Virus record (IMG/VR): IMGVR_UViG_3300027627_000010 | Location: 1-37,683 of that record | Origin: a virus | Taxonomy: Duplodnaviria; Caudoviricetes | Strand: one strand, 5' to 3' | DNA: 37,683 nucleotides | Shown: one piece after another, positions 24,198-27,505 of the stretch | Layout: every line of letters begins with the position of its first letter | Numbering within the stretch: the first letter of the stretch is position 1 | The notes under the pieces: model-generated | What the model saw: only the letters and a program-made list of their open reading frames with translations | Database searches by the model: none | Told to the model about the DNA's origin: nothing | Position numbers and translations under genes: made by a program

Positions 24198-24387
24198 GCT
24201 TCTTTACCCGCCACTTCGCCATCCTCTTAGCCGCCTCCTCGTCACACTGTCTAGCTAGCTTAGGAGCGTCACGCCTTAAGGCAATGGCGCAAGACTCTAG
24301 CTCAGACGAAGAGGCGGACGGGTCATGCAACATCTTGACCGCGCACAACTGCCAAGTCTTGAGGATGACTTTGTCTGCTTGGTTCAT
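24184..24387 (-). CDS. Hypothetical protein
   Basis: 67-aa ORF, last gene of the minus-strand block. Confidence 0.6.
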   Translation of the reverse strand: MNQADKVILKTWQLCAVKMLHDPSASSSELESCAIALRRDAPKLARQCDEEAAKRMAKWRVKKPTSA

Positions 24388-24416
24388 ACCACTTCAAGTG
24401 ACAGTTCCATAGCGGA

Positions 24417-25052
24417 CTAGCGCAGGGTGTATTCCCACCGCACCTTTGCAGCGAGGCTCTGCGCGTTGTTTCGTTTGCGAGTGCCGGTTGTCCAGTCCAT
24501 GCCCTTGTTGCAGGCGACGGCTTTCCATCCGCTCGCCTTGTAGATTGTCCCCTTGTGGGCTTCAGTGTCCTGATAGGACAGAAGCACAGTGATGTGCGGC
24601 ATTTGTTTCGCTACCATTAGCCGCATTATTTTCATCATCCGGCTTGCCGTGTTGTCCGGCGCGTCCTCAGCGATTGCCATGCGGCGAAGCTCAAGCGCAG
24701 TGCTTCCATTCTTTAGACGGTTTGCCGCAACTGGCGACGACCAGATTGCGACAGCGTAGTAGAGGTTGTTGCACTCTGCCGTGAAGCACGCATAGTCTTT
24801 ATTCCGCACCACGTTTGACCATTCGATGCGCGGGAATCGGCTGTGCCACATTCCGTTGAGCTTGCATGCCAGATGGACGTTGCACTTGCTGATTTTGAGT
24901 TGGAGCGCAGAGGTCGGAGTCGAACCGCCGTATTCCGCTTGGAAAAGCGGACATGCTACCCTTGCATCATCTGCGCGTAAATTTTCTACCATTCCTAACA
25001 TAACACTAGAGCTTCCAGCCGTCTCGCACGTCGTTGGTAATTCGGTAGTCAT
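24417..25052 (-). CDS. mom: Mom-like GNAT-fold DNA adenine-modification enzyme
   Basis: WHS, AIWSSPVA, LELRRMAI...P.N.ASRM and LLSYQD...H.GTIYKASGW motifs of Mom-like proteins. The ATG at 25052 overlaps the stop of the upstream RusA frame (ATGA). Confidence 0.8.
   Translation of the reverse strand: MTTELPTTCETAGSSSVMLGMVENLRADDARVACPLFQAEYGGSTPTSALQLKISKCNVHLACKLNGMWHSRFPRIEWSNVVRNKDYACFTAECNNLYYAVAIWSSPVAANRLKNGSTALELRRMAIAEDAPDNTASRMMKIMRLMVAKQMPHITVLLSYQDTEAHKGTIYKASGWKAVACNKGMDWTTGTRKRNNAQSLAAKVRWEYTLR
24901..24976 (-). tRNA. tRNA-Gly(UCC)-like element, non-canonical, embedded in the Mom-like CDS
   Basis: GCGCAGA-TG-ATGC-AAGGGTA-GCAT-G-TCCGC-TTTTCCAA-GCGGA-ATAC-GGCGG-TTCGACT-CCGACC-TCTGCGC-T-CCA. 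It has a perfect 7-bp acceptor stem, U8/A14, D-loop GG, a TTCGA loop, U73 and encoded CCA, plus an 8-nt anticodon loop and one bulged A in the T-stem. Confidence 0.85.
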
Positions 25053-25423
25053 ACCACTTCTATTTCTGTGCGCTCTTCTTTGCGCGTGGCGACTTGGACT
25101 TGACGCTCGGTGATAACGATGTGTTTGGTAGTGTCGTCTTCGATGACTCCATTGTATCGGAGTCCGTCGATGTGGTACTTGATGCAGAGGTTGTCTTGGT
25201 CGAGGAGCCGGACGCGATAGCTAGTGACTGTGACACGGCGGCGTGTATCTCGTCCCTCAACTTCTTCCTCTGCCAATGCCCCATCGAGAACAGTCGGTTG
25301 AGGCTTGGGATCGGTGGGCCGTAAACTACTAGCTTCGTGGGTTTGGAATCCGCGCCAGTATGCTCGAACTGCTTTGGCTTGTCTTTCTTCATACGCTGTC
25401 AGCCATTCCTTTGTGTAGTTCAT
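25049..25423 (-). CDS. rusA: RusA-like Holliday junction resolvase, catalytic C-terminal half (frame A)
   Basis: VTVTSYRVRLLDQDNLCIKYHIDGLRYNGVIEDD matches the RusA D.DN..K...D.L...g.i.DD motif; the N-terminal part of this frame is not RusA-like. Confidence 0.8.
   Translation of the reverse strand: MNYTKEWLTAYEERQAKAVRAYWRGFQTHEASSLRPTDPKPQPTVLDGALAEEEVEGRDTRRRVTVTSYRVRLLDQDNLCIKYHIDGLRYNGVIEDDTTKHIVITERQVQVATRKEERTEIEVV
25060..25392 (-). CDS. Overlapping ORF encoding a RusA-like N-terminal half (frame B)
   Basis: LVVYGPPIPSLNRLFSMGHWQRKKLRDEIHAAV matches the RusA strand-P-S-x-N-helix segment; ATG 25392 is ATGA-coupled to the upstream gene. Confidence 0.62.
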   Translation of the reverse strand: MKKDKPKQFEHTGADSKPTKLVVYGPPIPSLNRLFSMGHWQRKKLRDEIHAAVSQSLAIASGSSTKTTSASSTTSTDSDTMESSKTTLPNTSLSPSVKSKSPRAKKSAQK

Positions 25424-26198: not shown

Positions 26199-26807
26199 CT
26201 AAACTGATAAATCCATGTTTAACTTTGGGTTTTCTCTATCGGCGCATATCGCAGCCCTCATGCCTGAATACTGTGAAAGACCAGTGCCATCACAGGAGTC
26301 TGCTCCCAGCCCCTCGAAGTACTCAAAGCGACCCGGCGTGTTGACTCGCCCAATGTGACACCACTTCCCTATTACCTTGGACGCTTTCACTATCGCAGCT
26401 GCGCCAGTTCCTAACTTCCACTTGGTTGTTCCACCTATGAATACGGCGGCAATGTCAGTCCACGGGATGTCGAGATACTCTTGTCCGTCCTGACACACAA
26501 GGGCTATAGGCCAACCATTGAGTGAGGTTTGCCAGTGACGAAAGCATTCAAGCGTTCGCCTCGCATCTCCAACAACATCTGGGGCGGAAACGAATCTACA
26601 AAGGCTCTGCCTGCTTTTATGTTTGGCGAGCATAGTCAAAAAGCTTTTTGCGTCAAACTTTGAGAACGCACCGTTATCCATACCGAACTTCTGTTCCGGC
26701 TTCTGAGCGTTGTATCTAGTAAGCGGAGTGAACAACTGCTCCACATCGCAGCCAATCTCTTTAGCGCACACATCAAGGTCTTGAGATGTGTCGAGCATAA
26801 CAATCAT
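26199..26807 (-). CDS. TGT/DpdA-like TIM-barrel protein (putative deazaguanine DNA transglycosylase)
   Basis: DNGAF, APDVVGD, QDG, FIGG, HIGRVN and DSCDGTG motifs in TGT-like order. Start at ATG 26807 is coupled to the queC stop; the track start at 26960 lies inside queC. Confidence 0.62.
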   Translation of the reverse strand: MIVMLDTSQDLDVCAKEIGCDVEQLFTPLTRYNAQKPEQKFGMDNGAFSKFDAKSFLTMLAKHKSRQSLCRFVSAPDVVGDARRTLECFRHWQTSLNGWPIALVCQDGQEYLDIPWTDIAAVFIGGTTKWKLGTGAAAIVKASKVIGKWCHIGRVNTPGRFEYFEGLGADSCDGTGLSQYSGMRAAICADRENPKLNMDLSV

Positions 26808-27367
26808 AGCATGGCTGCTTTCAACTTTTCGCAGGCAGGACATTTGCCGCACGGTTCGGATCCTCCTCGATAGCATGTCCATATCTCTCCAGCAGGAACT
26901 CCCAACTCTCTGGACATACCGCCTATCCACGCTTTCGGTTTGTCTAGGTAGGGGGCGCATACTTCCACGGGAACCTCAGATGCTGCGAGCATGGAGTTGA
27001 ATGAACGGAGGAACTCCATCCGGCAGTCAGGGAATCCAGACTCGTCATCTTTGTTGCAGCCTATCGTAACTGTGTCCGCCTTTGCCTGAACCGCAAGGTT
27101 GACCGCAAGGCTAAGGAATATGCAGTTACGATTAGGCACAACCCAGCTTTGGTCATCAAGACCACCCAGCGGCGGCAACTCTATTGTCGTGTATAGAACG
27201 CCGAGTCGGTGACAGTGACCTTTGGCAAACACCAGTTCCTGTGCGTGGCTCTGCTTGTAGTCTATCAACAGGCAGTGGATTAAATGTCCCTGCTGTTTTA
27301 AATCATACAGCATTGTCACCGAATCCAATCCTCCCGATAGCAGGTGAACTATTATTTTAGGTATCAT
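26804..27367 (-). CDS. queC: 7-cyano-7-deazaguanine synthase QueC-like
   Basis: SGGLDS PP-loop, Y.Q.H..E, VPNRN, FPDCR and TCY......CGKCPAC Zn site; start ATG 27367. Confidence 0.92.
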   Translation of the reverse strand: MIPKIIVHLLSGGLDSVTMLYDLKQQGHLIHCLLIDYKQSHAQELVFAKGHCHRLGVLYTTIELPPLGGLDDQSWVVPNRNCIFLSLAVNLAVQAKADTVTIGCNKDDESGFPDCRMEFLRSFNSMLAASEVPVEVCAPYLDKPKAWIGGMSRELGVPAGEIWTCYRGGSEPCGKCPACEKLKAAML

Positions 27368-27505
27368 GTTTCCTATTCTTCGTTGTTTACTATGACATTC
27401 CAAAGCCACACGAAGGGGAGGCAAGGAATGGTTACGATTACCAACAGGGTTGAAAGGAACGCAGCACACGTTAGGTGTATCGCGTCTTTGATGGGTGTCT
27501 GTTCG

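What the first reader, a model, noticed from the sequence alone, without database searches (positions are those of the whole stretch)
24417..25052. Mom-like DNA-modification gene carries a full tRNA-Gly-like cloverleaf in frame within its own coding sequence
Seen: 24976->24901 folds into a 76-nt tRNA with bacterial GlyRS identity elements (G1-C72, C2-G71, G3-C70, CC in the anticodon loop, U73) and encoded CCA. The same bases read in frame as RADDARVACPLFQAEYGGSTPTSALQ of the ORF, which starts upstream with a coupled ATG, and the Mom/GNAT domain begins right after the CCA. Established: Mu Mom makes N6-carbamoylmethyl-adenine and, as I recall (needs verifying), uses glycyl-tRNA(Gly) as donor; other GNAT-fold enzymes such as FemXAB use aminoacyl-tRNA. 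Inference: this is a one-locus enzyme-plus-cosubstrate system. Either processing releases a dedicated glycine-donor tRNA at the cost of the mRNA, or the tRNA mimic is an autoregulatory operator bound by the toxic enzyme, like the thrS leader. The match between tRNA identity and the enzyme's donor is unlikely to be chance.
Basis: partly seen in the sequence, partly recalled or inferred. Interest (0 to 1): 0.95.

Follow-up and report, generated by a model that had tools for sequence, protein, structure and literature searches.

The report
Glycine tRNA written inside Mom gene
This phage's gene for a Mom-type DNA-disguising enzyme also spells, in the same letters as its protein, a conserved but deformed glycine tRNA that accompanies mom genes in many phages and is likely cut out and loaded with glycine as the enzyme's private glycine carrier, which has not been tested at the bench.

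Summary
Confirmed. Window 24976-24901 (-) is a tRNA-Gly-like cloverleaf (Rfam 33.9 bits) read in frame as residues 26-51 of a Mom-family ORF (PF25680; best fold match Mu Mom). Of 128 related mom loci, 110 carry it at the same place. All four stems covary, and synonymous change is cut about threefold. G1-C72, C2-G71, the anticodon CC and mostly NCCA are kept, while the anticodon loop (5-6 nt) and an invariant T-stem bulge look unfit for the ribosome. A DNA-side scan finds the same RNA at the 5' end (62) or 3' end (35) of mom genes, or free-standing beside them, including in cultured phages. This favours a co-transcribed trans-acting glycyl donor over a 5' operator. Mu Mom does use Gly-tRNAGly (PMC13219725). 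Against: Mu and 18 relatives lack the RNA; this clade lacks Mu's R151 and HTH-like insertion; processing, charging and use are untested. The embedded tRNA was noted once in passing (PMC3146451, Dehalococcoides islands) with no function in the passages read. I found no paper linking the two facts. This scan found it before on other DNA.

The parts
24417..25052 (-). mom-family ORF, 211 aa from the first ATG; GNAT fold. Residues matching Mu Mom R111, S124, D149, Y159 are R124, S137, D162, Y171; Mu R151 is E164 here
24901..24976 (-). tRNA-Gly-like cloverleaf, 72 nt plus U73-CCA, read in frame as residues 26-51
24934..24951 (-). anticodon arm: 6-bp stem and 6-nt loop holding UCC, non-canonical size
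24912..24929 (-). T arm with a bulged A (24914) among the base pairs that EF-Tu reads; invariant in 90 of 90 protein-anchored elements
24901..24904 (-). discriminator U73 and encoded CCA, also the Leu-Gln codons just before the first strand of the domain
24990..25052 (-). candidate starts: ATG 25052 (overlaps the stop of the upstream gene), ATG 25001, ATG 24992 (16 nt before G1; the family norm is 4-19 nt)
25049..25060 (-). left copy of a 12-bp direct repeat bounding the mom cassette
   Evidence: mom-less join 24383/25049 in run X7
24384..24395 (-). right copy of the 12-bp direct repeat, holding the start of the next ORF
25049..25423 (-). upstream RusA-like resolvase gene of the same minus-strand replication/recombination cluster (context)

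Best explanation
The first part of this phage mom gene is both coding sequence and a conserved tRNA-Gly-shaped RNA, which is likely cut out of some transcripts, likely charged by the host glycyl-tRNA synthetase, predicted to be shunned by EF-Tu and the ribosome, and would serve as the dedicated glycyl donor for the Mom enzyme that likely modifies adenines in phage DNA against restriction. Shown: the cloverleaf, its selection as RNA, its selection as open frame, its GlyRS identity bases, its deformities, and its near-exclusive link to mom. Inferred: RNase P cleavage at G1 and 3' trimming to CCA; charging; EF-Tu exclusion; use by Mom; that this Mom makes the same base as Mu's. Inferred consequence: a transcript cut at G1 loses the start codon, so each transcript yields enzyme or donor. 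This would cap the level of an enzyme that is toxic in Mu and spare the host's Gly-tRNA pool.
For: RNA selection: 1955 of 1980 stem cells pair in 90 distinct protein-anchored elements, with 95 same-branch double changes against 8.3 +/- 3.0 (max 20 in 5000 re-pairings). On an ungapped MAFFT alignment of 45, RNAalifold gives the same fold and 17 of 22 pairs show two-sided change; 98.3% of cells pair, against 79.1% shuffled and 38-49% slid. Synonymous divergence in the element is 0.32/0.27/0.11 against 0.90/0.82/0.45 in the domain (398 non-independent pairs). Charging signature: G1-C72 90/90, C2-G71 90/90, G3-C70 89/90, CC in the loop 90/90, NCCA 84/90; these are the GlyRS determinants in PMC9976931 (passages). 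C74 is a silent position yet is C in 80 of 86, while CTC is 65 of 394 CTN codons in the domain. In a scan not requiring the tail, 101 of 108 have U73 and 92 have NCCA. Non-ribosomal signature: bulged A 90/90; loop of 5 or 6 nt; the canonical registers pair only 45% (anticodon stem) and 79% (T stem); T loop TGC in 29/90; U33 in only 9 of 35 3'-type copies. Staphylococcal non-proteogenic tRNAGly have a TGC/TGT T loop, a 5-nt loop and weak EF-Tu pairs in the first three T-stem pairs (PMC7826273 passages). Position is free but linkage is fixed: 62 at the 5' end, 35 at the 3' end, one free-standing 13 nt before the mom ATG (L301), one starting right after the stop (Salinibacter phage B2_17) and one across the stop (Arthrobacter phage Sonny). 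Mom uses Gly-tRNAGly and rejects Gly-tRNAAla.
Against: No experiment, and no RNA contig covering the element. Mu Mom works with all three host tRNAGly, and Mu and phiEf11 have no such RNA beside mom. 18 of 128 close loci lack it within the DNA held, in about 7 changes on the tree, so it is dispensable. This clade departs from Mu Mom: R151, essential in Mu, is R in 0 of 129 domains, and the essential HTH-like insertion is absent from the model, so donor and product may differ. The window's own copy keeps the D-loop GG and T-loop UUC. 17 of 90 have A73 and 6 of 90 lack CCA. In 35 of 35 3'-type genes the frame runs through the whole RNA, which a pure trans donor does not require. That a bulge blocks EF-Tu is my inference; one search gave no direct paper. 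The 110 of 128 share is biased upward because loci were ranked by a query that includes the tRNA-encoded peptide.
Confidence: 0.6

Rival explanations
1. The cloverleaf is mainly a cis-acting control element of the mom mRNA: an RNase P/RNase Z cleavage signal, a roadblock just after the start codon, or a binding site for Mom or GlyRS that limits a toxic enzyme. The released RNA, if any, is a by-product.
For: A start codon lies 4-19 nt before G1 in 129 of 149 elements, inside the initiating ribosome's footprint (own knowledge). The frame crosses the whole RNA at both ends of the gene. Mu Mom is lethal when overexpressed and tightly controlled (PMC7261163 passages).
Against: The RNA also occurs outside the ORF (L301, B2_17) and at either end. 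A mere cleavage signal would not need C35-C36, the glycine acceptor pairs, U73 or an invariant T-stem bulge. Mom is thought to read the charged 3' end, which an internal CCA lacks.
Confidence: 0.22
2. It is a phage tRNA that props up translation or acts as a decoy: it refills the Gly-tRNA pool that Mom drains, or resists host anticodon nucleases.
For: Microbacterium phage Appa has an annotated tRNA-Gly on the opposite strand right after mom. Sonny's copy has an unbulged T stem. 58 of 62 5'-type copies keep UU at 33-34.
Against: Loops of 5-6 nt, the T-stem bulge and loss of U33 in the 3' type argue against decoding.
Confidence: 0.08
3. The RNA works with this Mom clade in another way: as a tightly bound RNA cofactor, or as donor for chemistry or a target other than Mu's N6-carbamoylmethyl-adenine.
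For: R151 is replaced and the HTH-like insertion is missing. The same RNA sits at the 3' end of a DruA/DUF4338-like phage protein in L370.
Against: The best structural match is Mu Mom, with R111, S124, D149 and Y159 equivalents kept. The RNA spans Mom clades that include ones much closer to Mu.
Confidence: 0.07
4. It is a relic or an attachment site: a captured tRNA gene that now matters only as peptide, or an attP.
For: Element-less relatives keep a peptide like the one the tRNA encodes (xxLF...P.SP.QL), so the peptide has some role.
Against: Compensatory change in all four stems; silent-site constraint; D-stem bases read in two different frames in the two subtypes. A whole deformed cloverleaf does not match a host tRNA end. 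No integrase was found among the 36 window proteins scanned in PHROGs.
Confidence: 0.03

Closest known systems
76-bp tRNA-Gly-like 'pseudo-tRNA' in the first 150 bp of the mom homologue of Dehalococcoides ssrA genomic islands (McMurdie 2011, PMC3146451; passages read)
   Same: tRNA-Gly-like cloverleaf embedded near the 5' end of a mom homologue, about 76 nt, with a 5-nt loop and DCC anticodon as in the second subtype here; also seen by the authors in one marine fosmid
   Different: Noted in passing in 16 islands, with no function in the passages read and Mom then assumed to methylate. Here it is shown to be family-wide in phages, covarying, in frame, at either end of the gene. I did not align their sequences with mine.
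Phage Mu Mom (PF25680, PDB 8BV8; PMC13219725, bioRxiv 2023.03.24.534169)
   Same: GNAT fold (Foldseek E 3.6e-9, TM 0.68); R111, S124, D149, Y159 equivalents
   Different: Mu uses host tRNAGly and has no tRNA beside mom; its protein ends at the motif where 3'-type elements begin. The window protein lacks R151 and the HTH-like insertion; about 17% identity.
Staphylococcal non-proteogenic tRNAGly NP1-3 with FmhB/FemA/FemB (PMC7826273, passages)
   Same: GlyRS identity kept, altered T stem and loop, shortened anticodon loop, GNAT-type partner
   Different: Those are free chromosomal genes with weak T-stem pairs and no bulge, shown to be charged and used for peptidoglycan. Here the RNA is phage-borne, nested in the enzyme's own reading frame, and untested.
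E. coli thrS leader tRNA mimic (recalled, not looked up)
   Same: tRNA-like structure in the mRNA of a tRNA-binding enzyme, near the start codon
   Different: thrS mimics anticodon arms in the leader. This is a whole cloverleaf with acceptor stem and CCA, inside the ORF and not fixed to the 5' end.

Membership tests
Mom family (PF25680) | HMM match above curated cut-off | tested here: met
   48.9 bits vs 27.1; phrog_1384 E 8.5e-18
Mom family (PF25680) | GNAT fold closest to Mu Mom | tested here: met
   model pLDDT 83; top PDB hit 8bv8, TM 0.68
Mom family (PF25680) | catalytic R111, S124, D149, Y159 | tested here: met
   profile alignment to 8bv8 maps to R124, S137, D162, Y171
Mom family (PF25680) | R151 and HTH-like insertion, both essential in Mu Mom | tested here: not met
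   E164; R in 0 of 129 domains; no helices in that part of the model. R151 is also E in the Mu-closer L236, so it marks Mu's enzyme rather than the Pfam family
Mom family (PF25680) | makes 6-NcmdA from Gly-tRNAGly | not testable with these tools
   needs LC-MS
tRNA-Gly (GlyRS substrate) | cloverleaf under selection | tested here: met
tRNA-Gly (GlyRS substrate) | G1-C72, C2-G71, C35, C36, U73 | tested here: met
   all present in the window; family counts; determinants from PMC9976931
tRNA-Gly (GlyRS substrate) | processed and glycylated | not testable with these tools
   only assembled contigs were available and none from RNA runs covers the element
canonical decoding tRNA | 5-bp anticodon stem with 7-nt loop and unbulged 5-bp T stem | tested here: not met
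   canonical registers pair 45% and 79% against 95.5% and 100% for the deformed ones
non-proteogenic tRNAGly (staphylococcal type) | altered EF-Tu pairs 49-65/50-64/51-63, short anticodon loop, TGC T loop | tested here: inconclusive
   bulge instead of weak pairs; short loop present; TGC in 29 of 90 but not in the window's copy; works-like, not a member of that lineage
non-proteogenic tRNAGly (staphylococcal type) | low EF-Tu affinity, preferred by the transferase | not testable with these tools
   needs binding and kinetic assays
thrS-type translational operator | fixed position at the translation start | tested here: not met
   35 copies at the 3' end, others outside the ORF

The most novel reading that the evidence does not exclude
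A widespread phage system in which an mRNA is also the precursor of its own enzyme's co-substrate: mom (and rarely DruA-like) genes carry an orthogonal, ribosome-excluded tRNA-Gly in frame, and host RNase P decides for each transcript between making the DNA-modifying enzyme and making its private glycyl donor, which couples dose of a toxic enzyme to donor supply.
Probability: 0.5. Interest if true: 0.92.

Novelty: new variant of a known kind. Interest (0 to 1): 0.8.

Why it matters
It ties a 2011 curiosity to the 2023/2026 discovery that Mom uses Gly-tRNAGly, and predicts a large family of phage-encoded non-ribosomal tRNAs that annotation tools discard because they overlap ORFs or score low (Rfam missed the copies in L006, L236, L370, L419 and L420). 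It would show how a phage can modify its DNA without draining the tRNA pool it needs for translation, give a natural case of a sequence that is protein code and tRNA at once, and supply an orthogonal aminoacyl carrier for DNA-modification chemistry. It also suggests that Mom homologues screened as codon-optimised or trimmed genes may have been tested without their donor. Cultured phages (Sonny, B2_17) make it testable now.

Tried and rejected
Expression: eight runs laid, all contigs; no contig from the six RNA runs covers the element, so nothing on transcription or processing. Clamp idea: the anticodon arm encodes xxLF, like a sliding-clamp-binding motif (recalled); one complex job with the E. 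coli beta clamp gave no verdict (0.31, mark 0.32). A tblastn of the window protein against cultured phages gave only distant Moms, and blastn of the element found only a chance-level tRNA-Ala match. Promoter and terminator scan was at chance level. The stop-codon frame test (1 vs 136 and 134 of 149) is weak alone because near-invariant bases create the out-of-frame stops; the ATG test and compensated indels carry more weight. The MFE of isolated elements gave a cloverleaf in only 55 of 90. The tree is a quick IQ-TREE run with weak deep support; one origin of the element-less state is not excluded by starred branches. Rows dropped before counts: duplicates, loci without anchor or with under 150 nt upstream, elements holding N, and L150, L181, L251, L261 (poor parse). 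One search crashed on unequal row lengths and was redone; only its D-loop GG count (41 of 90) stands. Supplements of PMC13219725: two text files searched without hits, one PDF could not be read, and the main supplementary figures with the homologue sequences were not seen; they may bear on the not-in-print claim. PMC3146451 supplements were not opened. The Minerva preprint has no mention of mom in its main text. The 50%-cluster search (1528 hits) was not analysed further. attP, chance fold, relic and separate upstream tRNA gene were rejected for the window.

Full report
Observation. Bases 24976-24901 on the minus strand form a cloverleaf: 7-bp acceptor stem, 4-bp D stem, 6-7-bp anticodon stem around UUCC, 5-bp T stem with one bulged A, then U73-CCA. 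ARAGORN calls a tRNA with undetermined anticodon. Rfam RF00005 gives 33.9 bits (cut-off 29) and shows two insertions against the consensus. The same bases are residues 26-51 of the 211-aa ORF 25052-24417, which matches Pfam Mom (E 8e-13) and phrog_1384. The window is a tailed-phage contig (major head protein, terminase, Erf, SSB, RusA-like, QueC-like). Alone, the fold is only modestly better than shuffles (z -2.09), so I turned to relatives.

The protein. A model from a 39-sequence alignment has mean pLDDT 83; most of the tRNA-encoded stretch is low-confidence and only its last third is ordered. Its best PDB match is Mu Mom, 8bv8 (E 3.6e-9, TM 0.68). The profile alignment maps Mu R111, S124, D149 and Y159 to R124, S137, D162 and Y171. 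Mu R151 is E164 and is R in 0 of 129 domains, and the HTH-like insertion is not seen in the model; both are essential in Mu (PMC13219725 section 13). Mom is lethal on overexpression (PMC7261163 passages).

Selection on the RNA. Four scans gave 178 loci, 131 distinct and anchored (one, L086, is the window itself), 128 with enough upstream DNA. Of these 110 carry the element exactly 56 nt before the conserved Trp codon and 18 do not. The share is biased upward, because the best 80 of 269 and of 450 were kept by similarity to a query that includes the tRNA-encoded peptide. Among 90 distinct elements, 1955 of 1980 stem cells pair. On a tree of the elements, paired columns change on the same branch 95 times (84 compensatory) against 8.3 +/- 3.0, maximum 20, for 5000 random re-pairings. 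My parser picks the best register, so I checked with tools: an ungapped MAFFT alignment of the window and the 44 elements of its geometry gives the same fold by RNAalifold, 17 of 22 pairs with two-sided change, and 98.3% paired cells against 79.1% shuffled and 38-49% slid. Silent divergence in the element is about a third of that in the domain (398 non-independent pairs).

Selection on the frame. An ATG lies within 21 nt upstream of G1 in the Mom frame in 102 of 149 elements, against 17 and 5 in the other frames; the nearest start is 4-19 nt away in 129. Two subtypes dominate: D loop 7 with anticodon loop 6 (97 of 150) and D loop 8 with loop 5 (46 of 150). The indels cancel, so the D-stem bases are read in different frames while the gene stays open; 148 of 150 lengths are multiples of three. 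In the window no start codon lies inside the tRNA or before M68, so the enzyme must be translated through it. Element-less relatives are scattered over the tree (7 changes, weak deep support), have no such RNA in the DNA held, and mostly keep an xxLF...P.SP.QL peptide. The peptide therefore has some role too.

What kind of tRNA. Kept: G1-C72 90/90, C2-G71 90/90, G3-C70 89/90, CC 90/90, UCCA 67, ACCA 17, other 6, matching the glycine determinants in PMC9976931 (passages). C74 is silent in the protein yet is C in 80 of 86. Broken: loop size, and a bulged A in 90 of 90 within the first three T-stem pairs, with covariation on both sides of it. Canonical registers pair only 45% and 79%. T-loop TTC survives in 44 of 90 and is TGC in 29; the window's copy keeps TTC and the D-loop GG. 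PMC7826273 (passages) states that EF-Tu affinity is set by those three pairs and that staphylococcal non-proteogenic tRNAGly have TGC/TGT loops and five-base anticodon loops. That the bulge excludes EF-Tu is my inference.

From the RNA back to the gene. A first DNA pattern gave 108 distinct matches, 93 followed in frame by a Mom HMM hit, many from distant clades. Of the other 15, two were poorly paired and not Mom, one was a 3'-type copy, three were cut short and nine had short flanks. A looser pattern without the tail (about 650 stretches estimated in the viral collection, 120 fetched) gave 114 distinct matches, 108 with at least 19 of 22 pairs: 62 in frame at the 5' end of mom, 33 in frame at the 3' end plus 2 more on inspection, 1 free-standing 13 nt before the mom ATG (L301), and 10 without an HMM hit, of which 9 show a Mom-like tail by eye and 1 ends a DruA/DUF4338-like protein. 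The 6 poorly paired matches had no Mom. U73 is present in 101 of 108 and NCCA in 92. In the 3' type only 9 of 35 keep U33 (CC was required by the pattern). Of five named phages examined, Salinibacter B2_17 has the bulged element directly after the mom stop, Arthrobacter Sonny has an unannotated, unbulged copy across the stop, Microbacterium Appa has a tRNA-Gly on the opposite strand, and Mu and phiEf11 have none.

Mechanism. Best reading (0.6): a co-transcribed, ribosome-excluded tRNA-Gly is released by host processing, charged by GlyRS and used by Mom. Free position with fixed linkage, a conserved acceptor end and anticodon CC, and loss of decoding features all point to a trans-acting charged RNA. 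For the window, cleavage at G1 would remove the start codon, so a transcript gives enzyme or donor. The main rival (0.22) is cis control of a toxic gene; read-through of the whole RNA in 35 of 35 3'-type genes favours some coupling, and the two readings can both hold. A translation aid or decoy (0.08), other chemistry (0.07) and a relic (0.03) fit less well. No RNA data were obtained.

The cassette. An exact 12-bp direct repeat flanks mom (24384-24395 and 25049-25060). A contig of run X7 joins 24383 to 25049, and contigs of X1, X2, X14 and X15 leave the window at 25049 with letters matching the far side. Enzyme and tRNA come and go as one 665-bp unit.

Prior art. PMC3146451 (passages) describes a 76-bp tRNA-Gly-like locus in the first 150 bp of a mom homologue in 16 Dehalococcoides islands and one marine fosmid, without a function in what I read; I reached it through this scan's notes. 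Term searches of PMC13219725 and its preprint found no mention of such an RNA (supplements only partly seen). Searches found no paper joining the two facts. Seven notes of this scan report the same system on other DNA; they are not independent support.

Verdict. Real, conserved and family-wide; a new variant of a known kind (a dedicated non-ribosomal tRNA for a GNAT transferase), with an architecture seen once but not explained. Interest 0.8.

Noticed in passing
window 24384-24395 and 25049-25060 (-): Exact 12-bp direct repeat bounding mom; mom-less relatives join the two copies, which restores the stop/start overlap for the next gene. In runs X14 and X15 the flanks are far deeper than the mom domain.
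   Followed up: partly
L370:901-976 (+): The same bulged tRNA-Gly-like RNA sits in frame at the 3' end of a phage DruA/DUF4338-like protein (PF14236, 98 bits), hinting that this family also uses Gly-tRNA.
   Followed up: partly
L420:1798-1871 (+), Arthrobacter phage Sonny: Unannotated tRNA-Gly-like RNA with an unbulged T stem and no encoded CCA overlapping the mom stop codon, in another frame.
   Followed up: partly
L422:1860-1934 (-), Microbacterium phage Appa: Annotated tRNA-Gly(CCC) convergent with mom, right after its stop.
   Followed up: no
window 24925-24960 (-) and element-less loci such as L033, L058, L083, L172, L176: The anticodon arm encodes an xxLF peptide that persists after the RNA is lost; it resembles a sliding-clamp-binding motif (recalled). 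One complex prediction gave no verdict.
   Followed up: partly
L146, L001, L029: L146 has the window's upstream sequence and element on a different Mom domain, and L001 and L029 share a leader but carry different element subtypes: leader, tRNA and domain appear to recombine as modules.
   Followed up: no
protein-anchored set, e.g. L012-L025: 17 of 90 elements have A73 instead of U73, clustered in one subtype; this may track the host's GlyRS type.
   Followed up: no
window 26199-27469 (-): QueC-like gene overlapping a phrog_15826 gene of unknown function, about 1.2 kb upstream of mom; possibly a second modification module.
   Followed up: no
window 25060-25392 (-): A 110-aa ORF without family match overlaps the RusA-like ORF in another frame on the same strand; its first half looks RusA-like by eye, so a frameshifted gene is possible.
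   Followed up: no
L181, L251: tRNA-like 3' half with the same bulged T arm but poor D and anticodon pairing and no Mom nearby.
   Followed up: no
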